Source: Hormiphora californensis | Taxonomy: Eukaryota; Animalia; Ctenophora | Reading direction: 5' to 3' | NCBI GenBank assembly: GCA_020137815.1 | Contig: WFME01000027.1 | Location: 1-17,749 of the forward strand | Length of the DNA: 17,749 nt | Shown here: positions 3,507 through 17,749 of the stretch, in pieces | Position numbering within the stretch: the stretch's first letter is position 1 | Layout: every line of letters begins with the position of its first letter | Translations under genes and position numbers: made by a program | Notes under the pieces: generated by a model | Seen by the model: only the letters and a program-made list of their open reading frames with translations | Databases searched by the model: none | What the model was told of the DNA's origin: nothing

Positions 3507-3587
3507 ATGATGTCGATACTGGATAAACTCCAGGGGAATATCTCTAATCGGGAACTCTCCAAATTCAGGGACCAGAATTATGATGAT
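3507..3587 (+). CDS. calpain exon 1 ([27 protein letters not shown])
   Basis: ATG at 3507, donor GTGAGT at 3588 (phase 0), DQNY motif. A possible acceptor at AG 3473-3474 leaves the frame open upstream (LLACCTGRGK). Confidence 0.8.
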
Positions 3588-6500
3588 GTGAGTTACAAGC
3601 TTTATACTTTTTCAAAACTTTACATCATCTCAAGTTTATACTTTTAATCTATGTTGTCGATAAATTAAAACCCTGTTTAGTTCTTTCATTAGCGTATCTT
3701 CTTCTTCTAACTCTAAAATGTATCAAACATCTCGACAGATAAAGAAGGAGTGTTTAGATTCTGGTGAGTACTGGACGGATCCTCTCTTTGGACCTGAAGA
3801 CACTTCACTTTGGGAGGGCGAGGCGAAGAAGGAAGTGGAGTGGATGAGAATCAAGGTAACCATTGGTTACCAAAACCAGACTCTAACATATTTCAAAAGA
3901 TGCCCGTCAAATTCTGCAGTACACGGCTCATCTTTTCACACGGCAGCACACCACATGGGTTTTTGTGTTTCCCTCAACTCTCTCCAATCCATAGCCTCAT
4001 CTAAGCCTGCCCTTTTACTATCTCTCCTAACTGAGCCTGCATCCAATCGAATGTAGTTAATAAAGGAGCAGTTCTTTGAACTTCTCCTAAATGGTCCGTC
4101 AGTCCTCCTCCTAACCTCTAAAACACCCTCTTTATATCTTCTCCAACCCTCCATGACCTCTCAACCCACCCCTCCATCAGCAATGAATCTATTCTCTCCA
4201 ACCCCCTCTCCAGGATATCCATGAGGTTGAAACTCTCCAGTACCCTACTACCCCCTCCAACCCACCCCAACCCACCTCTCCAACCCACCCCTCCAACCTC
4301 TCCAACCCTCAACCCCCCCCCCCTCTCCAGGATATCCATGAAGGTGCAACCCTCAACCCACCCCTCCACCCTCCAACCCACCCCTCCAACCTCTCCAACC
4401 CTCATCCCCCCCCCTCTCCAGGATATCCATGAAGGTGCAACCCTCTACGTGAATGGAGGCTGCGAGGATGATGTGAGACAGGGTGCCATGGGTAATTGTT
4501 GGTTCGTAGCGGCTGTAGCCTGCTTCGGAATCCACAAGAAACTACTTGATCATGTAATACTTTAATTAACTGCTTTATTAACTAGGGTAGACCGGGGTAA
4601 TTTGGACGGTTTTGGCATTCAATTGGTATTTCAAGAGCCATTAATTTACTTAATCAATTAGTTAGCTACTCAATTTGTGCAACTGAACCTTTATCTTGAG
4701 CCTCAGAACAAATTTGAATCGAAAACATAACTTTTAGATAGCTAATTAACCTTGTTAATGGAGGTAAGTCGGAATATTTTTGATCGCGAGACACGGGGCA
4801 ATTTGGACTAGTGGCTTCTACACCAACCACAATGCGCGCATTCAATCACGTGACCGCGACACACCACATTGCCCCAGCTGTAAATCTGCGATGTAAATCA
4901 GACCGAGGTTGGGGCTATTTGGACAAACTTGGATTGTAGCCACAGTTTTTGAGATATCGATTTCAAACTTTTCAGTCATCTAGTAATTTAGTATCCCGTG
5001 CTATTCCTTTTTTCAAAATTAGTTAATTAAGTAGTAATTAGCCTAATTAACCAAAAAATTAAGTGTTCATCAGATCTATATCTATAGGGTGCATTTTCGA
5101 AAGCTCAGGATTAGCCTAGTCGATTAGAAAAAGATTTAATCTAATCCCAAATAGGGTTTTTGAGAAAATCGACACCAAAGATCAAAAAACCACAAATAAA
5201 GCTACGGTTTTCAAAGGAATGCTGTTTGTGTTTTCAGGTGCTTACAAGGCCAGAAATTACTATTATGGGGATCCAGTCTAATCAATCATGTTAGTGGCCG
5301 ATTTCCACTCAATGCAATTCCCTGGGGTTACTATAGCAACGGAGTTTGTTACCATAGCAACCGGCGAATTTGCATTAATGTACTATTTTCTTGCTCCAAA
5401 TTCACCCATTACATCCGTATTATTAGACTATCGATTATTTAAACATGATTGTGAGTCACAATGAGACATCAGACTATCTTCAGTTACTAGCCAGTCAGTG
5501 GCTTTGGTTATCAAATGTATGCCTATTGCTCTAAGTTAGCCTGTAATTTATCCCTTTATTCAGTTATATCAGCTGCATATAATGGATAATTATCATGATA
5601 AAACACTACTTTTGGTCTTCAAAGCACCAGTCCTAGATATTCTGGAGCATGAAGTTGGTTTGTCGAATGCCACACCATGGATTGACTTGTTACCTTGGCA
5701 TCCAGAGAATTGATTGTAAAATGCGCCTTTTTTCTATTTTTTTGGTCTATTTACTCAGTTTTAGCCATCTATATTGATTGAATAGGATAATTTAGGGTCA
5801 CCACACACCAAAGTTAAAATTAAAATTAAAATTTGACGTTTTTGGTCATAACTCTCCCATTTCTTGGCAAAATTGCTTCATTTTGGGCTTGTTGGAAAGA
5901 GGGCATCAAGCCCGTTCTGAACAGCTCAAGAAACTTGAAATCCGCGCAAAGTGCGCGGCGTTACAGTGCAAAATGTGTGCGTTAAAATTTTAAAATTTTA
6001 ACACGCGCATTATGCGTCTTAACGCCGATCACTTTGCGCCGATTTTAAGTTTCTTGAGCTCTTTAGAACGGGCTCGATGCCCTCTTTCCAAAAAGCACAA
6101 AATGAAGCAATTTTGCTAAGAAATGGGAGAGTTATGACCAAAAACGTCAAATTTTAATTTTAATTTTAACTTTGGTGTGTGGTGACCCTATGAAAGCAGG
6201 TTGTCTATGGTTACCATAGAAACGAGTATAATGGCGCCATGAGGCCAATTTGTTTTAACCAATTTGCCCCATGGGGCAATTTGGTCTAGTCCAAATTGCC
6301 CCATGGGGCAATCTGGATTATGACCGAATTGCCCCCGATTTTTTCGTCCGAATTGCCCCAAATTGTCCGAATTGCCCCGCTTCATTAAAATGCCAATTAG
6401 CTAATTAAATCGAAAGCTAATGTCATTTTGATGATGAAACTGAATAGAAAAGTATCATATTGTGAAATTCTGACCCTTAATTTAAATAATTATCATAATT

Positions 6501-9500
6501 AAGTTTACCGAAACAAAGTTTAACTTTAAAGTCGTCATTTTTCGTTATTTCACACTAAACACCACAATTTAAAAGTCCCATATAAATCACTTGGTGACAT
6601 AGACACCGTGCGCGACCAAGATTGAGCTCACACACAGGTGTCTGCTCCGCCTCAAAAAGGGTCGTTTCTTTCAAGGGATGTTGCACGCGATCCACTGGAC
6701 CGATTTGCATCCGGTTTGTCGCAAAAGACTACAAATGATCCTAATATACTGGAAAATACCCGAGAAGTTTGTCTGTCAACAGGAAGTGGGTCGAAATTGA
6801 CACTGAAGTCAAACCTATAATCTGGCTTCCGAGAGTTTCTGCACTACGCCCATGCGATTTAGAAGATATTGGGAGATATGTTGATGCAATTAGCATCAGC
6901 TATTAATGCCGGGTATTTTCCAGTACTCACAAGAGTTCAACCTATCTTCTGATACCCTCAGATTCATTCTAAACCGTCTGGGAGTGGTGCAAAAAGGCTC
7001 GGAAGCCAGATTATAGATTTGACTTCAGTGTCAATTTTGACCCACTTCCTGTTGACAGACAAACTTCTCGGGTATTTTCCAGTAAAATAGGACCAATTTG
7101 TAGTCTTTTGCGACAAACCGGATGCAAATCGGTCCAGTGGATCACGTGCAATTTGGCTTGAAAGACACGACCCTTTTTTAGGGGGCGGAGCGGACACCTA
7201 TGTGCGAGCTCGATCTCGGTCGCCGCGCGACCTCGATCTCGCACGCACTAGGTGTCAATGTCACCAAATAAATCACTAGTCCACATTGCCCCGTCCTGTG
7301 ACCACATTGCCCCACCGTCCAAATTACCCCGGTCTACCCTACTTTTTAAAAGAATGGGTGATCCGGCACTTATAAGCTTTCTCACCCGGAGAGAATTGGC
7401 TGTGTGACTGTTGACAGTCCCAGCTGAGCAACACAAACCAAACCAACTCAAGCGCAAGCTCACTTATTCCTTTCTTTTAAACTTTGTAAAATTGAAATAT
7501 CTCATGTGTTTTACTCGTTATAATATCTCTCCCAGGTGATTCCAGAACCTAAGAAGCAGGATCCACAAGAGAATGAAGATTATTGTGGAATGTTCCTGTT
7601 CCGGTTTTACAGGTTCGGAGAGTGGGTCGAGGTAAGAACTGTGGGTTGGGTGCAGTGGTGAGGACGGTTGGGGTGGTGGGGGCGGGTGGAGTGGTGGGCG
7701 GGTAGGGCGGTGGGGGTTGATGGGGTGGTGGGGGTTAAGGTGTCGGTTGGGCAGGTGTGGACGGGTGAGGTTGAGCGGGGCGGGGTGGGGTGGACGGGTG
7801 GTGTGGGCGGGTGGGTTAGGCACTTCAAATCAGGCATCACAAACTCAGCCTAATATCTCTCACACACATCAAAGAATTTGCTAGTTTTTAAAACGGTGCT
7901 AAAAGTTCACAATATCACTTGCCATTAATTTCATTCAACATTTCATATTTCTAGGTTGTTATTGATGACTGGCTGCCTACACGACATGGTAAACTAGTGT
8001 TCATGCATAGTACAGAGAAGAACGAGTTCTGGTGTGCCCTACTGGAGAAGGCCTACGCAAAGTAAGTTATCTACTTTATATCTTGTTATCTAGTAAGTTA
8101 TCTAGTAAGTTATCTACTTTATTAGATCTACTACTACTTTAGAATTCTAGAACAGAAATTGTAAAGGGTTATGGGGCATGAAATCACAACGTTTTGGAGC
8201 ATGTAAGGAATCATAAATTCTCAATTAATAGCTTATAAACAACGTGTAGTAAACTAAAACAGAAAAAGCAGCATAAGCGGTCAACGTTTAGCAAGAAAAT
8301 AGTATAGATACATTTTGTATGGGCAATATACATTTACATATTATGCATGATTGCATGAATGTACTTGTATGTTATACAAATACATTCATGCATTGTTCAA
8401 TGCTGGAAGCAACTTCCACCAAGTCAATAGAAAGAGAGAAAAGAAACTAAAATAAGAACAAGCAATCGAAATTGTAGCAATATTACTGTAAAAACACAGA
8501 AGAAGGCAATTAGTGATAGTAAAACTAAATAGTACTGCTGCAATGGCAATTACAGGAGCTATTGATAATTATGTCTCGCAGATTGGATTTTAATTAGGAT
8601 TCATTGATTTCAAGAATTGTTTCCTAATATATATACTTCCTAATTGTTTCCTAATTGTACTTCCTAATTATATGTAATTCCTAATTATACTTCCTAATTG
8701 TTTCCTAATTAGGTAATTTAAAGACTCCTCTGATTATACTTCCTAATTAGGTTGGCGGGTAGTTACGAGGCACTTGATGCTGGACGACCCGCGGATGCCC
8801 TTACCGATCTTACTGGTGAGTCTCAGGATATGTTGAGTCTACATTAGAAAGATCTCCCATTCAAAGTTTTTGGATGGTACAATAAGGATTCATTGAATTT
8901 GAATCCGATTCAAATTTCTAAATCACAACTTTAATTCATTGGTACTGATCAATTTAAATCTAAATTTTGTTCAGGCGGAGTCAGTCAGTTTACTGACTTT
9001 ACAAAGGCCAACATCCGAGAGGACGAGGTTGCTAGAGAGAAACTGTTTCAGTAAGTACATGCTAGAGAGAAACTGTTCCAGTAAGTATACATGATTTGAG
9101 ATGTTGCACAACTCTTCAAACATATATAGGTTCTCACCTTTTTAGCACTCATGAAATTCGTATGAATGGTCGGCGGACCATACACGACCGTACAAGGTAT
9201 AACCGGGTATGTTTCTATCAAAAGTTGTGACTCTAAAAACATCCCCCCCCCCACTTCAGAGATCTGTTAAAGGCGTTATCCCGGGACTCCCTGGTGAACT
9301 GCAGTATGGTAGTTGATGAGCATGAGAACATGGAATCCATGAGAGAAAGTGGTCTGATCGTGGGACATGCCTACACTCTTATCAAGTGTTATGAGTTGTC
9401 TCTGGGCTTCCTGGGGTTGCAGGGGAGACACAGACTGGTTAAACTGAGGAACCCATGGGGTGGGACTGAGTGGAAGGGAGCTTGGAGTGATGATGATCCC

Positions 9501-9533
9501 AGGTGGGCTGAGATATCCGAATCGAAGAAGAAG
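3507..9533 (+). CDS. CAPN5: calpain-5/TRA-3-like cysteine protease, 3'-incomplete; join(3507-3587,3739-3855,4422-4553,7536-7631,7955-8061,8751-8815,8975-9050,9260-9533)
   Basis: Eight GT-AG exons splice into an open 948-nt frame (316 aa). Calpain motifs: DQNY..., [16 protein letters not shown] (Cys 4497-4499), [44 protein letters not shown] (His 9366-9368), [16 protein letters not shown] (Asn 9450-9452). [14 protein letters not shown] and KLAG resemble CAPN5 as recalled. Calpain identity is near certain; CAPN5 orthology is inferred. The start ATG is uncertain. Confidence 0.9.
3739..3855 (+). CDS. calpain exon 2 ([17 protein letters not shown]...EWMRIK)
   Basis: CAG acceptor at 3736-3738, donor GTAACC at 3856, phase 0/0. 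Confidence 0.92.
4140..4445. repeat. C-rich degenerate tandem repeat containing three copies of the exon 3 acceptor
   Basis: CCCTCTCCAG|GATATCCATGA has exon-side starts at 4214, 4331 and 4422, within CCAACCCACCCCT-type repeats. Confidence 0.9.
4422..4553 (+). CDS. calpain exon 3, catalytic Cys (DIHEG...[12 protein letters not shown]...LLDH)
   Basis: Acceptor AG 4420-4421, donor GTAATA at 4554, phase 0/0. Confidence 0.95.
5795..6188. mobile_element. spacerless palindromic MITE-like foldback nested in the transposon
   Basis: 5793-6190 is a 398-bp palindrome centred at 5991/5992. The outer ~73 bp are perfect and the rest is about 90% by eye. Ends are TA-GGGT...ACCC-TA. Confidence 0.85.
6259..6378. 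repeat. cluster of TIR-related GGGGCAAWTNGG motifs (putative transposase-binding repeats)
   Basis: TTGCCCCATGGGGCAA palindromes at 6264-6279 and 6296-6311, and three CCGAATTGCCCC copies. Related motifs near 4795, 4863, 4911, 7281 and 7302. Confidence 0.75.
6591..7267. mobile_element. long-TIR foldback element with 9-bp TSD (Mutator/MULE- or FB-like), nested
   Basis: Inverted arms at ~6591-6864 and ~6967-7267 (TTGGTGACAT...ATGTCACCAA), flanked by the direct repeat ATAAATCAC (6582-6590, 7268-7276). Mirror-image peptides in the ORF track agree. Confidence 0.88.
7536..7631 (+). CDS. calpain exon 4 (VIPEPKKQ...[15 protein letters not shown])
   Basis: CAG acceptor at 7533-7535, donor GTAAGA at 7632, phase 0/0. 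Confidence 0.95.
7641..7820 (+). repeat. G-rich low-complexity intronic tract (G-quadruplex potential)
   Basis: More than 15 runs of at least three G just downstream of the exon 4 donor. Confidence 0.85.
7955..8061 (+). CDS. calpain exon 5 (VVIDDWLPT...[14 protein letters not shown])
   Basis: TAG acceptor at 7952-7954, donor GTAAGT at 8062, phase 0/2. Confidence 0.96.
8615..8750. repeat. short TTCCTAATT-based tandem repeat ending at the exon 6 acceptor
   Basis: About eight copies of TTCCTAAT(T); two end in AG (8711-8712 and 8749-8750). Confidence 0.85.
8751..8815 (+). CDS. calpain exon 6 ([22 protein letters not shown])
   Basis: AG at 8749-8750, donor GTGAGT at 8816, phase 2/1. Confidence 0.95.
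8975..9050 (+). CDS. calpain exon 7 ([24 protein letters not shown])
   Basis: CAG at 8972-8974, donor GTAAGT at 9051, phase 1/2. Confidence 0.92.
9260..9533 (+). CDS. calpain exon 8, catalytic His and Asn (DLLKAL...GHAY...LRNPWG...SESKKK)
   Basis: CAG at 9257-9259, donor GTAAGT at 9534, phase 2/0. Confidence 0.96.
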
Positions 9534-9604
9534 GTAAGTGTGCTGATAATGAAAATGAGAATTCAACTATTCAACATTTCGTCATTTCTGTATTTTCCAC
9601 TATA

Positions 9605-9935
9605 GGGTAGACCGGGGTAATTTGGACGGTTTTAACATTCAATTGGTATTTCAAGAGCCATTAATTTACTTAATCAATTAGTTAGCTACTCAATTTGTGC
9701 AACTGAACCTTTATCTTGAGCCTCAGAACAAATTTGAATCGAAAAAATAACTTTTAGATAGCTAATTAACCTTGTTAATGAAGGTAAGTCGGAATATTTT
9801 TGATCGCGAGACACGGGGCAATTTGGACTAGTGGCTTCTACACCAATCACAATGCGCGCATTCAATCACGTGACCGCGACACACCACATTGCCCCAGCTG
9901 TAAATCTGCGATGTAAATCAGACCGAGGTTGGGGC
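9605..9935. mobile_element. DNA transposon copy 2, left end only, interrupted by an LTR element
   Basis: Matches 4585-4915 at an offset of 5020 with five substitutions seen. Preceded by TA. Identity stops at GGGGC|TGTCGG. Confidence 0.95.
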
Positions 9936-10190
9936 TGTCGGCGCTTTACATTTGCGTGGTTCTTGTGCTAAGTTCCGACAGGTTGTTAATCAAGACGGAT
10001 TGGTTACCAACTAAAACGCGGTCTTTACAAGGCATAAACAAATAGTGCATTTTACAAAGTCAAGTTTTCAATAATTTCATCATGCATAGCATTACTAGTG
10101 TACTCCATCTCTGTTGCTCATTTTGATCTCTTAATTTATAACTTTATCGCGTTTATACACGTCACCTTGTATTACTATGAACACAGATAT

Positions 10191-10359
10191 TTGACTTCTG
10201 TTGACTGCTCTTGAGACCGATGTCTCTCACAATACCTTTAGCAGAAGTCAAATATATAGCTTCTAAGGTACTTGACTTCTGTTGACTGCTCTTGAGACCG
10301 ATGTCTCTCACAATACCTTTAGCAGAAGTCAAGCCCTAAGCTTTTATCTCTTTTTAGAG
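10191..10359. repeat. hairpin-repeat array A: two 61-bp units
   Basis: Unit TTGACTTCTGTTGACTGCTCTTGAGACCGATGTCTCTCACAATACCTTTAGCAGAAGTCAA at 10191 and 10272. Confidence 0.95.
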
Positions 10360-11012
10360 TTAAGTTGAATGGATTGGGAAGGGGGATGAGCTCCCTGTAA
10401 TCCCAGTCCATAACAGGAGGCAGTGGGTCCGCAAGGATCCGGGGGCACGATAAATCCTCATATAGCGCTGGAGAGATGGCTGAAGGCTCCCGTGTCTAAC
10501 CAATCATGAAGCAACATGATACTGTGGTACCTCCTAGTCGGCCATGTTGTCGGGCTACTTGGGACAGAGCACCCCCAAGCAAGTGGCACATGGTGGTACG
10601 TGGACGACAGTCCACACCTAGCTGATCTGTACCCAAAGGCTTTATATAGGACCTGAGAGTCGGTGATATGATTTAGGGGTACAGATGCAGTGAACAGGCA
10701 AGGCTCTTGAAAACGGTCAAAGATCATAGTTGTGAAAGCAAGTCCTCTATGGTTCAGACCGTCGGGGGAACCCAGGCATGCCAATCACATGTACTGGTAA
10801 TCCGTCGCTACAGACTGGGTCAAGAGCCGGTTGGGTCACATATGCTATAAAATCCTGCAAAGGTCGCGTGCTCAGCTCAATGTACAGTCGGGCCTATTTT
10901 AGCTAAAAGCGAATTCGTCAGTAGGACGTGACAGTTAGTAAGCGAGAATAGCCGTTGTGATCGAGGTGATTTAAAATTGACCCTCGGGAAGCAATGGGCA
11001 GACGATGTTATG
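10356..11012 (+). ncRNA. group I intron ribozyme, subgroup IB-like; core 10702-10890, outer boundaries tentative
   Basis: P3 GGCUCUUG 10702-09/CAAGAGCC 10821-28; J3/4 AAA; P4 ACGGUC 10713-18/GACCGU 10757-62; J4/5 AAA; P5 GAUCAUAG 10722-29/CUAUGGUU 10747-54; P6 CGG 10763-65/UCG 10805-07; J6/7 CUA; P7 C(A)GACUG 10811-17/CAGUCG 10885-90, with bulged A and the G-C guanosine site; P8 GGUUGGGU 10829-36/GCUCAGCU 10870-77; J8/7 CAAUGUA. GCUACAGACUGG and AAUGUACAGUCGG match the R and S motifs of IB introns as recalled. Confidence 0.9.
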
Positions 11013-11558
11013 CAGTCACAGAAGTCAAGTACCTCTAAAAAGCTTAGGGCTTGACTTCTGCTAAAGGTATTGTGAGAGACATCGGTCTCAAGAGCAGTCA
11101 ACAGAAGTCAAGTACCTCTAAAAAGAGATAAAAGCTTAGGGCTTGACTTCTGCTAAAGGTATTGTGAGAGACATCGGTCTCAAGAGCAGTCAACAGAAGT
11201 CAAGTACCTTAGAAGCTATATATTTGACTTCTGTTGACTGCTCTTGAACCGATGTCTCTCACAATACCTTTAGCAGAAGTCAAATATATAGCTTCTAAGG
11301 TACTTGACTTCTGTTGACTGCTCTTGAGACCGATGTCTCTCACAATACCTTTAGCAGAAGTCAAGCCCTAAGCTTTTATCTCTTTTTAGAGGTACTTGAC
11401 TTCTGTTGACTGCTCTTGAGACCGATGTCTCTCACAATACCTTTAGCAGAAGTCAAGCCCTAAGCTTTTTAGAGGTACTTGACTTCTGTTGACTGCTCTT
11501 GAGACCGATGTCTCTCACAATACCTTTAGCAGAAGTCAAGCCCTAAGCTTTTATCTCT
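11012..11558. repeat. hairpin-repeat array B: inverted block followed by four forward units
   Basis: Reverse units at 11051-11111 and 11143-11203, with a partial unit at 11012-11028. Forward units at 11224, 11304, 11396 and 11479. Linkers are 20, 31 and 22 bp. Confidence 0.95.
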
Positions 11559-11563
11559 ACTCT

Positions 11564-11862
11564 TCTCTACTCTACCCCCCAACCCAACTGAGGTCTCATC
11601 TCTGCGTAAAGTCTAACTGTGAACTCATGGCCGGAACCACCGCCACTACGGTTTGCCCTCCCCTCACAAGTGAGGTGTGTCGGACGTAGTGTCGGTGTTG
11701 AGTATGGCTAAAATGTATCTCCTTATGATATCTACCAACTTACTACGGTTTGCCCTCCCCTCACAAGTGAGGTGTGTCGGACGCAGTGTTGGGTGTGATA
11801 TTCCTAATGACCTCTGCTAGTGATCTCTACTCTACCCTACCCCAACCCCAACTGAGGTCTCA
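11564..11862. repeat. two pairs of direct repeats in the LTR near the putative TSS
   Basis: TCTCTACTCTACCC..CAACTGAGGTCTCA at ~11564 and ~11824. ACTACGGTTTGCCCTCCCCTCACAAGTGAGGTGTGTCGGACG at 11645 and 11742. Confidence 0.85.
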
Positions 11863-12219
11863 AATCAAAAACACCATCTTTTATACTCGATTCTTTATCA
11901 CGCATGATTCTCTCTTCCCTTAGTTATTCTAACAATCTCTAAATAACGCGTGAGACAAATCCTAAAACCTGATTGGTCGATTCATAACAATAACTTAATA
12001 CTGATTGGTCAATCTCTAAACAATAGATCTCTGCTAAGATTTAGTAAACAACGTTCACGTACGACACTATCTTCCCTTATATTTTATAACACTCTCACTC
12101 ACAAAACTGTTTCTACGATACATATTCTATTGTCTTCACTCAACTTAAATCATCCTATTGTCTCCACTTCCGGTTGGCATCGTTCCAACATTAGATCATC
12201 CTATTGTCTCCACTTCCGG
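11850..12219 (-). promoter_or_regulatory. putative LTR promoter (TATA, Inr, two CCAAT, two ETS-like sites); TSS near 11853
   Basis: On the minus strand: TATAAAAG 11885-11878, TCAGTT 11855-11850 about 32 nt downstream, CCAAT at 11976-72 and 12008-04, and CCGGAAGT at 12173-66 and 12219-12 within a 46-bp duplication. Confidence 0.7.
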
Positions 12220-12370
12220 TTGGCATCGTTCCATCTGGCACCGTTCCATTTGGCATCGTTCCATCTGGCTTTGTTCCAACTACCAATATCCCAGATAATA
12301 ACCAAGTAACTTGTATACACAAATTCCTAGTCCAGGTCTACACTAAGTTGGAAACGTGTAGAATACACGG

Positions 12371-12633
12371 AGCCAACATCACCCCCTTCTTTCAAGCAAC
12401 GAAATTCCTTTTCTGATCTTCAATTAAGGAGGATCCATGATAAATTCATGGCTCCGACATCACCCCTTTCTCTCAAGCAACGAAATTCCTTTTCTGATCT
12501 TTTTAGGAGGATCCATGATGACTTCATGGCTCCGACATCACCCCTTCTTCTCAGGCAACGAAATTTCTTTTTTGATTTTTAATTAAGGAGGATCCATGAT
12601 GAATTCATGGGTCCGACATCACCCCTTCTTCTC
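12371..12633 (-). repeat. tandem array of four polypurine tracts, each abutting a TGT LTR-start-like end
   Basis: ...ACA|TCACCCC..TTC junctions at 12378, 12459, 12537 and 12618 (periods 81, 78, 81). Confidence 0.85.
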
Positions 12634-12937
12634 AAACACTTATGTTGTCTTCCTGGTAGTTTCCTGTCGGGGACAGAGTCGACACTCTGTCTATCTGGAA
12701 GTTAATTGCTTCCATCGATTCACTAACGTTCCTCAAGTTGTCCAGTAACTTCTGTTTGTCTTCCTGTTTGCTGGTAACCACTACATCGTCAATTATACAG
12801 ATATCATGGATTATGTTCACAAGTGATGACGGTATGGTATATTGCCAGCTGCTTCGGCCCATTACGATTTGGGGAGCTGGTGCTATACCAGGCAATTCAT
12901 ATGTATCACTAGAACGCCCACTAAATCCTAAGATAGC
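12632..12937 (-). pseudogene. degenerate reverse transcriptase core fragment (Gypsy-like)
   Basis: Open frame ELPGIAPAPQI...DICIIDDVVVTSKQEDKQKLLDNLRNVSESMEAINFQI resembles Gypsy RT LPFGxxxAP...CYxDDILVTG..E...HLxNLxxV. YxDD reads IIDD (DD at 12790-12785). Confidence 0.5.
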
Positions 12938-14020
12938 TCATTCAGTTTCTCAATGTACTGGTTTATTTTGTTTACCACAGTGGTTCCCTCATCATTTTGG
13001 CTTGCTGGATATCCATCGCCTGGAGTATCTTTCTCCCCGAGTTCTCCATTGACAGTCTTTCTCCCGGAGGGTTGCTGTTTCCCTCTGGTTATTAATTCCG
13101 ATCAGCTCGCGATTCTATTCTTTGTAGCTGCCAAGTCGTCGCTCTGTTGGTTTTCCTCCTAGTTCTAGGTCTTCGTGCAGTTTTCTTCTCCCCGTGATTG
13201 GGGTTTCTTTATGGGAAATTGGTAATCCATTGAACCCGTTGTTGCAGTTCGCTATCAGTTGAGTCACTTTCGCAGTAGTTTCCTGTCGGGGACAGAGTAG
13301 ACATCATCCTCCTCTTTCAGAAATTTAAAATTGTCCTTTCCAACTTTCTCAACGCACTTCTGATATGTTTAAATAAAATTTCTTCAACCTCTACTCATAC
13401 TCTACTCTCTTATCAAACTAAATTTTATCCTACTCACTTCTTCGTTCTTTAAAATACCATACTTTTACTCATAATATTCTTCTATGCTACTTTATTCAAC
13501 TCACTCACACTCTGATCTTTCTAGACAGTCTATCTTTCGCGGATATATTAATCATTGAATTTCCATCGTATTCCACATCTATCTTTATTTTCGTTTCATC
13601 ACTACTCGTCGTTTGCAGTAACTCCCCCTTCATGATGTATTCATGAGTCGTCATTGCCTGTTTTCGCATTCTGTTCAAGTGTTCGGAATTTCAATCCGAT
13701 ATTTTGGCATGGTCGATTCATATTCGGCTCCCCTGTTGTCTTTTTAATGTTACTTTAGTGTATGATCTGTAACTTCTCTATCTGTGTGTAATTCAGGGTG
13801 TTTCACTGTCTTTGCTGTCCTCTTCTTTCTGTCTTCTGGGTACGTCAATTTCGTTTCCACTGTACGATCTGAGTTCTGTATTTATCTCATCGTTGTTTGT
13901 TTGTGTCTCTGCTTCGACCCAGCGGTCTATTTTAAATGTCTGTCGGGTCTTTCGATTCATATTGATTTTGTCTCCTCTGAATGTTCTGTATCCTCACTTA
14001 TCGTATTCCCTTATCGTATT

Positions 14021-14152
14021 ACCTTGTCACCATAACCTTGTCACTACTACCTTGCCATCATAACCTTGTCACTTCTACCTTGTCATTGTTAACTTGTCAT
14101 CATAACTTTGTCACTTCTACCTTGTCATCATAACCTTGTCACTTCTACCTTT
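14021..14152. repeat. 14/28-bp tandem repeat
   Basis: Alternating ACCTTGTCATCATA and ACCTTGTCACTTCT units. Confidence 0.88.
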
Positions 14153-14859
14153 TCATTGACTTTGTCTTTATTATCTGTCTCGTCTCGTTTCAACAACTCA
14201 CCACTCCACTTGATTAAATTTTATTTTTCCCAACAATTTCTTCAATGAAAATTTTCTAAGCCTTGCCTTTTTTAAATTATTTTGTAAAGTTTTATGTTAT
14301 TACAATTACAAATAATACTTATTTAATATCTTATTTACTACTTTTTCACTTACTCAGTTATTTATTCATTGACTTGCTCTATTATCTAATTCATCTCAAC
14401 TAATTTATTCATACTAATCAAACCTAACGTAACATAATCTAATCCAATTAACTTAACTCTCTCTCTCTAATCCAATTAACTCACTCTCTCTCTTTCTCTA
14501 ACGTCAATCACTCAACATTCGTTAACCTACCCTAACTGAACTTATCCCGTTTCTTACTTAACTCGTATAGTCATATCGCAAACTAACTCCATCACTACTG
14601 ATCTATAACACTCAACTCGACTCTATCTAACTTACTCTGGCTTAATTCAATCCAACTTGACTCGACCTAGCTCGTCCTTACTAATCCATCCTAACTTCGC
14701 TTTAACCAACTTAGTTTCCTATTTAAATTATAAGCTTAATTCTCCTAGTCTTTCCTAACTCGTCTTAACTCTGGATCATTCAACTAACCCTGCTTCAACT
14801 TCTCTCATCCTAAATCCATTCAACTAACTCAATTAACTTGACTCGATCTTACTCTTAGT

Positions 14860-15745
14860 TTAACTTAACTTAACTTAACTTAACTTATCTCAACTCATCT
14901 TAACTTAACTTAAATTATCTCAACTCATCTTAACATAACTCAACTCAACTCAACTTAACTTAACTTATCTCAACTCATCTTAACTCAACTTAACTTAACT
15001 TATCTCAACTCATCTTAACTTAACTTAACTTAACTTAACTTATATCAACTCATCTTAACTTAACTTAACTTATCTCAACTCATCTTAACTTAACTCAACT
15101 CAACTCAACTTAACTTAACTTATCTCAACTCATCTTAACTCAACTTAACTTAACTTAACTTTACTTAACTCGACATAACTTAACTCAACTTAACTCAACT
15201 TAACTCAACTTAACCTAACCTACCTAACTTAACTTAACTCAACTCAACTCAACTCAACTTAACTTAACTTAACTTAACTTAACTTAACTCAACTTAACCT
15301 AATCTAACTCAACTTAACTCAACTTAGCCTAACTTAACTTTACTTAACTCGACATAACTTAACTCAACTTAACTCAACTTACTCAACTTAACCTAACCTA
15401 ACCTACCTAACTTAACTTAACTTAACTCAACTCAACTCAACTCAACTCAACTTAACTCAACTTAACTTAACTTAACTCAACTTAACCTAATCTACCTAAC
15501 TTAACTTAACTCAACTTAACTTAATGAAAGTTTACTTACTTTCAACTTGACTCCACAGCTTAATCTAGCTCAACTTAACTTAACTTAACTCAACTCAACT
15601 CAACTTAACTTAACTTAACTTAACTCAACTTTACCTAATCTACCTAACTTAACTTAACTCAACTTAACTTAATGAAAGTTTACTTACTTTCAACTTTACT
15701 CCACAGCTTAATCTAGCTCAACTTAACTTAACCTAACTTAACTTA
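14860..15745. repeat. (AACTT/AACTC)n pentamer satellite with higher-order structure
   Basis: About 0.9 kb of pentamers with recurrent TATCTCAACTCATCT interruptions and larger block duplications. Confidence 0.96.
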
Positions 15746-16102
15746 CTTATTCAGCCTAATTTAACTATAATCTAATTTATCATGCCTCAACTTATGTATA
15801 CCTTTATTCATATTTTTTTTAAATGCTACATATATTATTGGACAATTAGGTTTGCCTACTAGTTACATGACGGGAAGCTAATCCACCTCCACTGGAGAGA
15901 ACTCTACGATAGGCTTTACATAGTCAGCTCGCAACAACAAAAGGAGATCCGCTCCCCCTCATGACTCATAAGCAGACCAATATCCTTAACTTAAACATAC
16001 CACGGGTCTAACAGTATTCTAACTAGTTTAACAAGTTATACCAACTAATACACTAACTTCTCTAAATTAGCACAATCTGCCCTAAATGTTTCCTAATTAT
16101 AT

Positions 16103-16245: not shown

Positions 16246-17749
16246 AAAGTTCCGTAGGCAGTATTTCATAGTCCGATTCTTTCGTAGACTTGGTATGGGG
16301 CATGTTAGATAGGAGGGTGCATTGGAAAATCAACTAAAACGACCGTTACCTAACTTAACTTTGTGTAAATCCAGCTTGATTAATAACTTCCTTCAATAAT
16401 CAATATAATCCTACACAGCTCATTTCTACATGCCTATCCAATTTCAAATTTTTCGCCTTTCAGTGGGTTTTTCTTCAAAAGCTTCTTCACTCTACAGTCT
16501 ACACCCCAACCTTAACTCCTATATTTCACACTCATTCTAAACTATTTTCTAACGTTTCTTTATTTTCCTTGATCAATCCCTAAAATAGACAGATTCTTCA
16601 ACTTGTACCTGCTTCCCTTGTTTTATCTTTTTGACTATTGCAAACTTAGTCTTAAACTCTTCCTTTTTCTGAATCTAATTAAATCTACACAGTACACTTT
16701 AACATGATATTCCAGAGTCAAAACTTTATTTCATATCCTACTACTAGATCCCGCTAGATCCCATAATTATTTCACTATTTCAAAGGTATCACGACATGAT
16801 ATTTACAGTATAAGCCCCTTCCGAAATTGCCCAAATGCTGATATTATCTTTTAGACTTCTTAACCAATGAAACCAGTGCTTAACACCTTACTTCAACTTC
16901 CCTAAACATTAACATCCTCAAATATCAACTTCCTTTAATATCAACGTCATTTAACTTTAACTTCCTCAGATTCTGTACGTCTTTGATTGTTATTTAATAA
17001 GCCAATTTAGCGCTTTTATGTATGCAAGAGAAATTCGCCAGAACTCCATCCTAAATAAGAGTGATCAATTCTCATCATGGCACATTCGTAATGATCAGTT
17101 ACTCCTGCGCAGAAGCCCCGGAAAATTATCGTCATAATTCAAACAACTCCAGCACAACTGTGACAGACTTTTATAGTACTATCAGTCAGTCACCTTTCAG
17201 ATCCAAATAAGACTTCAAATCCATCAAAGGCAGGCAACTCCTTATACGATTGATCAAAATCCTAATATAGATCCAAGAAAATTTTCAATGAATTCATTGT
17301 GCTCTCCTCATTTAATTAAATCCATTTCATAATTCGAACAATTAACTCATTTACCAGCCGGTGATCTTAGTGCTCTCGGGCGCCACTCGACCCCTTATCT
17401 CCTTATTTCTACATATATCCACTTTACGTATCTCAATTCACCTGTTTATTCCTCGAATCCCTTTCATATAATTATCAGCTTACAGCACCAATTTCCATCA
17501 GTTAATATGCAATTTTTTAGAGCTTGTTCACTGAACTGATACCCCTTCAATTGTCTACTTTTCTCTAAACTATGTCACCCTGTCATATCATTTATCTTCT
17601 CCTCCTACTATTATCACAACCCGTCAAAATTTTCGCCTTATATTTATAACTCTAGCAAATACTTCTCGATTGTCCATGTTACACTTTTAGTCTTCAACCT
17701 CCTGCTGAACTAAGCAGGTGCAGTTTGAGCCGACTACCGTTCCACAGAC

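What the first reader, a model, noticed from the sequence alone, without database searches (positions are those of the whole stretch)
10356..11012. Complete group I intron ribozyme core (IB-like) inside the LTR of a nuclear retroelement, within an animal-type calpain intron
Seen: all core helices occur in canonical order with canonical joiners on the + strand. These are P3 (8 bp), AAA, P4 (6 bp), AAA, P5 (8 bp) with a GAAA-capped extension, P6/P6a/P6b, CUA, P7 with bulged A and G-C guanosine site, P8 (8 bp) with a GCAA-capped hairpin, J8/7 CAAUGUA, then P9-type hairpins (10894-10951, 10952-10997). None of the P3-P8 helices has a mismatch, and the G-U pairs work only on the + strand. Established: nuclear group I introns are known essentially from rDNA of fungi, algae and protists; in animals they are known from mitochondria of hexacorals, sponges and placozoans; IB introns are mainly organellar. 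Inference: an apparently intact ribozyme with no endonuclease ORF, carried by an LTR element, would be a eukaryotic analogue of bacterial IStrons and may be undescribed.
Basis: partly seen in the sequence, partly recalled or inferred. Interest (0 to 1): 0.95.

Follow-up and report, generated by a model that had tools for sequence, protein, structure and literature searches.

The report
Guide-targeted jumping intron in comb jelly
A self-splicing (group I) type intron, of a kind known from mitochondria and likely from giant viruses, sits at many different sites in what is likely a comb jelly's nuclear DNA, each time right behind six letters that match its own guide sequence, and relatives interrupt retrotransposon genes, so it likely spreads by splicing itself into retrotransposon RNA, a route long proposed but not yet shown.

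Summary
The ribozyme core is real. P3–P8 pair without mismatch, and a covariance model built from 13 outside introns hits the window once (87.7 bits). It is subgroup ID, not IB. The host is likely a ctenophore (calpain 74% to Bolinopsis).

The intron starts at 10375 (P1 with U·G). This copy is cut off at 11012. Complete copies run 67 nt further to a conserved AAGTG end, seen on the minus strand at 17682.

No LTR pair exists in the window. The intron is a multi-site mobile element with no endonuclease ORF. In 10 of 10 loci with a clear 5' end (two families), the 6-nt guide pairs with that locus's own flank. Contigs from two organisms show several different 3' flanks at exactly the same base. 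Intron-less alleles exist, and one has the guide-matching hexamer. Relatives sit in frame in LTR-retrotransposon gag-pol/integrase and Copia RT ORFs. The closest kin are introns in giant-virus-like rpb2/polB genes.

Best reading (inferred): guide-directed reverse splicing into retroelement RNA, fixed by the host's reverse transcriptase. Splicing and mobility are untested, and the window's own host repeat is unidentified. Ten literature searches found no report of this.

The parts
3510..9533 (+). Calpain (Peptidase_C2) exons. The last exon in the window ends at 9533, followed by GT; everything after it lies in the following intron or beyond a gene break
   Evidence: (74% to Bolinopsis microptera calpain-5-like)
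10187..10359 (+). Two tandem copies of a 61-nt hairpin repeat (H) with linkers. A separate high-depth repeat, not covered in organism B and not found in any related locus
10357..10374 (+). 5' exon (target flank); it ends in ATGGAT and matches the empty site at 14814-14831 on the minus strand
10369..10411 (+). P1: exon 10369-74 pairs with the guide GUCCAU 10406-11, with U10374·G10406 at the splice site; P1 extension 10375-79/10401-05
10375..11012 (+). Group ID intron, first 638 of about 705 nt; 3'-truncated copy with no terminal G
10412..10700 (+). Large structured 5' peripheral (P2-type) domain, shared with rpb2 introns of giant-virus-like contigs
   Evidence: 29 of 74 predicted pairs with double changes; z -3.5
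10702..10890 (+). Catalytic core P3-P8 with the G site in P7 (G10813-C10889)
10891..11012 (+). P9 hairpins, with compensatory T10897C + A10948G in X9 and X15
11012..11558 (.). H-repeat array: inverted units (11012-11233), then direct units (11220-11558). It replaces the intron's 3' end in this copy
14814..14831 (-). Empty counterpart of the 5' flank (12 nt exact, about 17 of 18), at the edge of the AGTTA satellite 14860-15749
   Evidence: (2 matches, 0.01 expected)
16741..17681 (-). 3' exon of a second intron copy: a degenerate multi-copy repeat, protein not identified; intron-less alleles run past 17681
17682..17749 (-). 3' tail of a second intron copy cut by the window edge; terminal G (omega-G) at 17682, ending AAGTG
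   Evidence: (loose ends after 11012 in X1, X5, X9)

Best explanation
This is a subgroup-ID group I intron with no endonuclease gene, found at many unrelated sites in likely ctenophore nuclear DNA, always behind six bases that pair with its own guide, and it likely spreads by reverse-splicing into retrotransposon RNA that the retrotransposon's reverse transcriptase would then copy into the genome. SHOWN: intact core; exact 5' and 3' boundaries shared by copies with different flanks; guide-flank pairing; seamless insertion with no target duplication; intron-less alleles; in-frame, sense-strand position in retrotransposon ORFs in relatives; much greater contig depth than the neighbouring host repeat. 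INFERRED: (1) it self-splices with GTP, which would keep the host ORF usable; (2) excised intron RNA binds a matching hexamer ending in U in another RNA and integrates; (3) only RNAs that get reverse-transcribed pass it on, which would explain the retroelement hosts; (4) template switching between copies at different sites gives the tandem, permuted and truncated forms seen in L013, L056 and this window; (5) the guide changes faster than the rest, by selection or by templated repair of the P1 hairpin; (6) the lineage came from, or shares ancestry with, giant-virus introns. The copy at 10375-11012 is a truncated, inverted by-product. It would not ligate exons normally, though its P1 and core look able to do the first (cleavage) step.
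For: Guide-flank pairing: U·G plus five Watson-Crick pairs in 6 of 6 family loci with a clear 5' end (window, L013, L082, L074, L054, L056) and in 4 of 4 of a second family (L066, L046, L027, L044); 7 different hexamers. Same guide with different wider context: L082 vs L074, and L046/L027/L044. Fixed 3' end AAGTG, then divergence, in L013 (both copies), L093, L082, L074, L054, L056 and the window tail. Loose ends exactly before 17682/17681 with low agreement: X5 3+2 contigs (0.62, 0.63), X9 3 contigs (0.56). Intron-less contigs: X1 record 8 (1320 nt) runs past 17681 and continues with the same six letters as the guide, i.e. a 6-of-6 complementary target (C, not U, at -1); X5 record 16 and X9 record 24 also run past that point. 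The window holds an empty counterpart of the filled 5' flank. Depth of intron tail vs adjacent flank: X5 about 9,000-12,000 vs 500-1,000; X9 about 1,400-1,700 vs 20 (summed contig depths, not copy numbers). Hosts: L082 flank is Integrase_H2C2 + rve; L054 flank is a zinc-knuckle gag with a protease-like motif read by eye; L066 flank is RVT_2. The frame stays open across the junction with the intron left out in L054, L082 and L074, and the ORFs on both sides of the L066 intron line up likewise. L056's two flanks come from two different AAATGAT sites of the ORF seen in L054. L054 vs L056: 9 differences in 782 nt, 3 of them guide positions 4-6, each matching the new flank (about 1e-6 by simple counting, positions chosen after the fact). 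Compensatory changes in P1, P2 domain, P3, P5, P6a, P9. Reviews describe this pathway as needing 4-6 complementary bases and lacking direct evidence (PMC3984707, PMC8395846).
Against: No spliced RNA junction was seen. The one RNA contig laid (X15, 567 nt) lies wholly inside the intron, and X23 laid nothing on 16300-17749. The window's own host repeat gave no RT, integrase or gag hit (only E 2.7 to L082 integrase). Hosts of L074, L046, L027 and L044 are unidentified, and L013's flank is a satellite upstream of a gag-like ORF without a Pfam hit, so retroelement enrichment is not quantified. L105 did not give a clean P1 or an AAGTG end. The empty allele has C at -1, a poor substrate by my knowledge of group I chemistry. 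No P10 pairing is evident. In the source-sample run X1 the intron is low-depth (7.7), unlike X5 and X9. G·U tolerance lets some guides pair 6/6 with other loci's flanks. Host taxa of L013, L082, L074 and L054 were not established. No listed contig spans the whole stretch.
Confidence: 0.65

Rival explanations
1. A non-autonomous IStron-like DNA element, moved at DNA level by a trans-acting HUH (Y1) transposase or homing-type nuclease; the ribozyme only hides insertions.
For: No target duplication, and a short 5' target often ending in GAT, resemble IS200/IS605 behaviour (recalled). Exact ends. IStrons exist (PMC3984707).
Against: No ORF over 99 aa in 5 introns. All identified host ORFs carry the intron in sense orientation. 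The target tracks the RNA guide 37 nt inside the element, not a subterminal DNA hairpin. Identified hosts are RT-using elements.
Confidence: 0.12
2. SINE-like retroposition: excised intron RNA is copied straight into chromosomal DNA by a LINE or Penelope-type RT, and the guide-flank match arises later by selection or hairpin repair.
For: High depth against the host repeat. 5'-truncated (L013 first copy) and tandem/inverted structures recall Penelope-like insertions (PMC8557442). Satellite flanks in L013 and X5. The guide varies fast.
Against: No poly-A or simple-repeat tail and no target duplication. Precise 5' ends in 10 of 10 loci. An intron-less allele already carries the matching hexamer. 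The same guide recurs with the same hexamer at unrelated sites.
Confidence: 0.1
3. One reading: a fixed ribozyme part of one retroelement family's LTR or leader, carried passively and perhaps processing the element's RNA ends.
For: L013 has the intron twice, 823 nt apart, upstream of a gag-like ORF. The window has two copies flanking a 6-kb repeat-rich stretch.
Against: Flanks differ at both ends among copies, within one organism and between organisms. It interrupts integrase, gag-pol and Copia RT ORFs. Intron-less host alleles exist. No LTR pair.
Confidence: 0.07
4. A NUMT, an endogenised giant-virus fragment, a symbiont sequence or an assembly chimera.
For: ID introns are mainly mitochondrial and viral. 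No single laid contig bridges calpain to the intron.
Against: No organellar or viral gene flanks any family copy. Ctenophore mtDNA has no known introns (PMC5633667). It is held by two organisms in separate studies. An independent 11-kb contig with repeats and a terminal TTAGGG array carries it (L013). Covariation implies ongoing selection.
Confidence: 0.04

Closest known systems
Group I introns, subgroup ID (fungal mitochondrial cob/cox1; PMC8971849)
   Same: P7 CAGACUG/CAGUCG; P3, P4, P6, J8/7 (CM 87.7 bits); P1 with U·G; terminal G
   Different: Nuclear, about 50% GC, no endonuclease ORF, many unrelated insertion sites rather than one homing site, large conserved 5' peripheral domain
Group I introns in giant-virus RNA polymerase and DNA polymerase genes (Bodo saltans virus and klosneuviruses, PMC5871332; here L002, L005, L052, L057, L055)
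   Same: ID core. The 5' peripheral domain HMM hits 4 such introns at E about 1e-9 and no mitochondrial locus. They group together in trees. One L057 intron also ends in AAGTG
   Different: Viral introns sit in essential genes and spread by homing endonucleases; this family lacks one and sits in repeats and retrotransposons. The viral origin of L005, L052, L055 and L057 is inferred from gene content and AT-richness, not shown
Nuclear rDNA group I introns (PMC8395846)
   Same: Nuclear location; reverse splicing proposed for their spread
   Different: They are described as restricted to rDNA of microbial eukaryotes; this one is ID-type, outside rDNA, in an animal
Group I introns in protist Polinton-like viruses (PMC12220804)
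   Same: Group I introns in nuclear-integrated mobile DNA outside rDNA
   Different: Those hit RF00028, lie in DNA viruses of protists and, in Rhodomonas, at one gene position; this family misses RF00028 and occupies many sites in RT-dependent elements
IStrons (CdISt1; PMC3984707)
   Same: Mobile unit that would remove itself from RNA; short 5' target paired in P1; no target duplication
   Different: IStrons are bacterial, IA2, and encode IS605-type proteins; none here
Penelope-like elements and retrozymes with small ribozymes (PMC8557442 for PLEs; retrozymes from search listings only)
   Same: A ribozyme tied to retroelements; tandem and inverted repeats at this locus
   Different: Those use hammerheads as fixed parts of terminal repeats; here a 700-nt splicing ribozyme is the mobile unit

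Membership tests
Group I intron | P3-P9 core with P3/P7 pseudoknot and G-binding site | tested here: met
Group I intron | P1 with U·G at the 5' splice site | tested here: met
   6 of 6 family loci with a clear 5' end; (L105 unclear)
Group I intron | Terminal omega-G at a fixed 3' end | tested here: met
   Met for the family and the minus-strand tail at 17682; absent from the truncated + copy
Group I intron | GTP-dependent self-splicing with exon ligation | not testable with these tools
   No spliced junction in the RNA contigs laid
Group I intron | Rfam RF00028 match | tested here: inconclusive
   No hit; 4 of 4 control loci also missed
Subgroup ID | P7 5'-C_A_GACUG...CAGUCG-3' and a match to an ID core model | tested here: met
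   PMC8971849. The paper warns that P7 alone can mislead; the ERPIN/RNAweasel models were not available
Subgroup IB | IB-type core model | not tested
   No IB model at hand; the P7 is the predominant ID motif
IStron | IS200/605/607 transposase and/or TnpB inside the intron | tested here: not met
   Longest ATG ORF 38-99 aa in 5 introns
IStron | DNA transposition by the element's own transposase | not testable with these tools
   none
LTR of an LTR retrotransposon | Paired direct terminal repeats containing the ribozyme around gag-pol | tested here: not met
   no retroelement protein hit in the window
Homing group I intron | Endonuclease gene and one conserved insertion site | tested here: not met
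   No ORF; many sites
NUMT | Organellar gene flanks, single decaying copy | tested here: not met

The most novel reading that the evidence does not exclude
A class of protein-free mobile introns, derived more than once from giant-virus group ID introns, that parasitise eukaryotic retrotransposons (Gypsy-type, Copia, probably non-LTR). They choose targets with a 6-nt RNA guide that is rewritten far faster than the rest of the ribozyme, integrate by reverse splicing, and have amplified to outnumber their host elements in ctenophore genomes. This would be the first genomic-scale case of RNA-guided group I transposition and of group ID introns in animal nuclear DNA.
Probability: 0.45. Interest if true: 0.96.

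Novelty: new variant of a known kind. Interest (0 to 1): 0.9.

Why it matters
[quoted passage not shown] This family gives many recent insertions with known guides, filled and empty sites, and near-identical copies with different guides, so the pathway becomes directly testable by genome counts and simple in vitro assays. It also points to gene flow from giant viruses into animal retroelements, a parasite-of-a-parasite lifestyle, and a natural retargetable splicing ribozyme that would work in an animal cell. Standard Rfam scans miss it, so more may be hidden in other genomes.

Tried and rejected
Rfam at gathering score and at E<=10: no group I hit, only hairpin-driven miRNA noise; uninformative given. 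No whole genome is held for this window, so copy number and context could not be counted. Phage blastn: no match. A window-derived exact pattern in viral contigs: 0. The window's degenerate minus-strand frames, read with X at stops: no retroelement hit in Pfam, PDB (2 of 6 frames tried) or 1.84 billion representatives (one frame), so the 'RT-like' and 'integrase-like' motifs seen by eye are not claimed. Host taxon of relatives: L054 gag and an L013 exon found no homologues; the Atlas gave only generic eukaryotic integrase clusters for L082; an exact look-up of the L054 ORF gave unnamed records. A formal pair count with shuffle controls was not obtained; covariation rests. The short-core tree had weak deep support (54/25). 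The longer tree (96/98) is partly driven by presence or absence of the 5' domain and by base composition. My cox1 queries were out of frame, so those labels were dropped; 84 of 109 loci stayed unclassified there. Supplements of the cited papers were not read.

Full report
OBSERVATION. P3, P4, P5 and P7 pair fully, as do P6 and P8. Rfam finds nothing, but it also finds nothing in 4 of 4 control loci fetched by pattern, three of which interrupt recognisable genes: fungal-type cob with a LAGLIDADG ORF (L003), rpb2 (L002) and a capsid-like ORF read by eye (L001). A model built from outside introns detects the window's core once and strongly: HMM 54.5 bits against at most 4.5 in 30 shuffles, and CM 87.7 bits against 7.7 for the next hit. 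The P7 is the motif PMC8971849 gives as predominant for subgroup ID (879 of 1,107 hits; passages read). The label IB is therefore replaced by ID.

HOST. Seven tblastn blocks at 3510-9533 match residues 1-314 of a Bolinopsis microptera calpain. The last exon is 74% identical, against at most 56% for the 7 weaker hits. Bolinopsis is a ctenophore. No later exon lies in the window. The stretch 10363-11012 is held by 20 of 23 listed runs in 14 studies: the possible source sample, a second sample of organism A (0.56 of words), organism B (0.43) and marine metagenomes. Ctenophore mitochondria have no known introns (PMC5633667, passages).

5' BOUNDARY. Laying contigs on 10270-11050 showed other 5' flanks joining at 10371-10374, and changes clustered at 10407-10411. 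These contigs are separate, so their linkage is inferred. A pattern scan of metagenomes returned 106 stretches, 105 loci. Seven loci align along the window's intron: L013 (two copies, 80-82%), L093, L082 (74%), L074 (72%), L105, L054 and L056. In the six sequences with a clear 5' end, the last six flank bases pair with six bases ending just before a conserved AACAGG, always as U·G plus five Watson-Crick pairs. RNAalifold finds the same helix with double changes at 5 of 6 positions. The splice site is after U10374. L105 does not give a clean P1.

3' BOUNDARY. In X1, X5 and X9, contigs continue after 11012 with sequence that is the reverse complement of the window's last bases. That 68-nt tail aligns with L013. 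All complete relatives end in AAGTG and then diverge (none found for L105). Laying contigs on 16300-17749 gave several different flanks joined at exactly 17682/17681 in X5 and X9. It also showed an A in place of G11012 in some X5 contigs, and far higher depth on the tail than on the adjacent repeat. So the full intron is about 705 nt, the + copy is truncated, and a second copy enters at the window's right edge on the minus strand.

EMPTY SITES. X1 record 8 covers 17513-17681 and carries on without the intron. On the + strand it continues with the same six letters as the guide, so the sense-strand target is fully complementary to the guide, with C rather than U at -1. X5 record 16 and X9 record 24 also pass this point. 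The 12 bases before the 5' splice site recur exactly once more in the window, at 14814-14825 on the minus strand, with no intron behind them (0.01 expected).

HOSTS OF RELATIVES. L082's 3' flank is an integrase (Integrase_H2C2, rve). L054's 5' flank is a zinc-knuckle gag followed by a protease-like motif. With the intron left out, the frame is open across the junction in L054, L082 and L074, but not in L056. L056 takes its two flanks from two different places in the ORF seen in L054, both ending in the heptamer its guide matches, as expected if copies inserted at two sites recombined. L054 and L056 differ at 9 of 782 bases, three of them the outer guide positions. L013 is an 11-kb contig ending in a TTAGGG array, with two intron copies beside a satellite upstream of a gag-like ORF that has no Pfam hit. 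The taxa of these contigs are unknown.

A SECOND FAMILY behaves the same way. L066, L046, L027 and L044 are 93-99% identical introns with four different pairs of flanks, matched guides and an AAGTG end; L066 lies just before a Copia RVT_2 domain.

THE WINDOW'S OWN SURROUNDINGS. The intron is flanked by tandem and inverted arrays of a 61-nt hairpin that is not covered in organism B and is absent from all related loci. There is no LTR pair, and the degenerate minus-strand frames gave no protein hit. The retroelement link is therefore shown for relatives and inferred here.

ORIGIN. An HMM of the 5' peripheral domain hits, outside the family, four introns in rpb2 genes of L052, L057 and L005 at E about 1e-9. 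It hits members of two other non-organellar families weakly, and no mitochondrial locus (genes). In a 21-row tree the family is a clade (99/97). It groups with rpb2, polB and Copia-hosted introns apart from mitochondrial ones (96/98), with the caveats the tool lists. The 48-row core tree is weaker at that node, but puts the Copia family next to a polB intron at 100/99. Self-splicing introns in giant-virus RNA polymerase genes are known (PMC5871332, passages). A viral source is likely but not shown.

MECHANISM. Seamless insertion behind a guide-matched hexamer, no target duplication, no encoded protein, sense orientation and RT-using hosts fit reverse splicing followed by reverse transcription. 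PMC3984707 describes exactly this route, needing four to six complementary bases, and says it lacks direct evidence; PMC8395846 says genomic integration is unsupported. Against: no spliced product was seen, enrichment in retroelements is not quantified, and X1 shows few copies where X5 and X9 show high depth. I put this reading at 0.65.

NOVELTY. Ten full-text searches listed no paper on group I introns in retrotransposons or in animal nuclear DNA. I judged most from titles and abstract starts, and the library lacks most subscription journals. The nearest printed case is RF00028 introns in protist Polinton-like viruses (PMC12220804, passages). PMC11296320, PMC3073962 and PMC8557442 (passages) add no such case. 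Earlier unchecked notes of this scan describe IC1-type introns in animal Polintons and introns in fungal telomeric retroelements; these are leads, not support. No look-alike of this sequence was on record. The ribozyme is a known kind; its niche, multi-site spread and fast-changing guide are not. Verdict: new variant of a known kind, interest 0.9.

Noticed in passing
L066:1889-2530, L046, L027, L044: Second family of ORF-less ID introns (641-745 nt, 93-99% identical) at four different sites with matched guides; one is in a Copia pol ORF; sister to a polB intron (L055/L089).
   Followed up: partly
L004, L007, L025, L039, L059, L070, L086, L099: GC-rich (63-65%) third family with a divergent P4-P6 region. 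L059, L070 and L099 share a 3' end but have three different 3' flanks; downstream ORFs look like non-LTR RT by eye, with no Pfam hit.
   Followed up: partly
L034, L069, L033, L045, L043, L014, L101: Further non-organellar-looking ID cores; L069 lies behind an ORF with a CCT-like basic end (by eye).
   Followed up: no
window 10187-10359 and 11012-11558: 61-nt hairpin repeat in head-to-tail and head-to-head arrays, with very high depth in X5 and none in X9; origin unexplained (fold-back products or a small hairpin element).
   Followed up: partly
window 10375-11012: The truncated copy lies in the sense direction of the calpain transcript with P1 and core intact, so it might cut that pre-mRNA at 10374 without ligating it.
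   Followed up: no
X15 record 10 (842 nt): A more divergent family member in an RNA run, matching only 10692-10722 and 10875-10895.
   Followed up: no
window 4574-7350 and 9603-9936: Nested inverted-repeat (MITE-like) elements in calpain introns: an outer element with terminal inverted repeats, a 400-nt palindrome at 5793-6190, another at 6591-7267, and a 98%-identical partial copy of the outer element at 9603.
   Followed up: no
window 11560-11870, 12350-12638, 13990-14160, 14860-15749: Duplicated tail-like segment, 81-nt and 14-nt tandem repeats, and a 5-nt satellite in a strongly C/T-skewed minus-strand repeat of unknown class.
   Followed up: partly
L057:9627-12600, L052: AT-rich rpb2 genes with inteins and three ID introns each or nearly so; two have a variant P7.
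   Followed up: partly
L003 (BMQF01000050.1) and L004 (CANGWK010000053.1): Contigs filed under bacteria that look eukaryotic: a fungal-type mitochondrial cob with a LAGLIDADG intron, and a member of the GC-rich intron family.
   Followed up: partly
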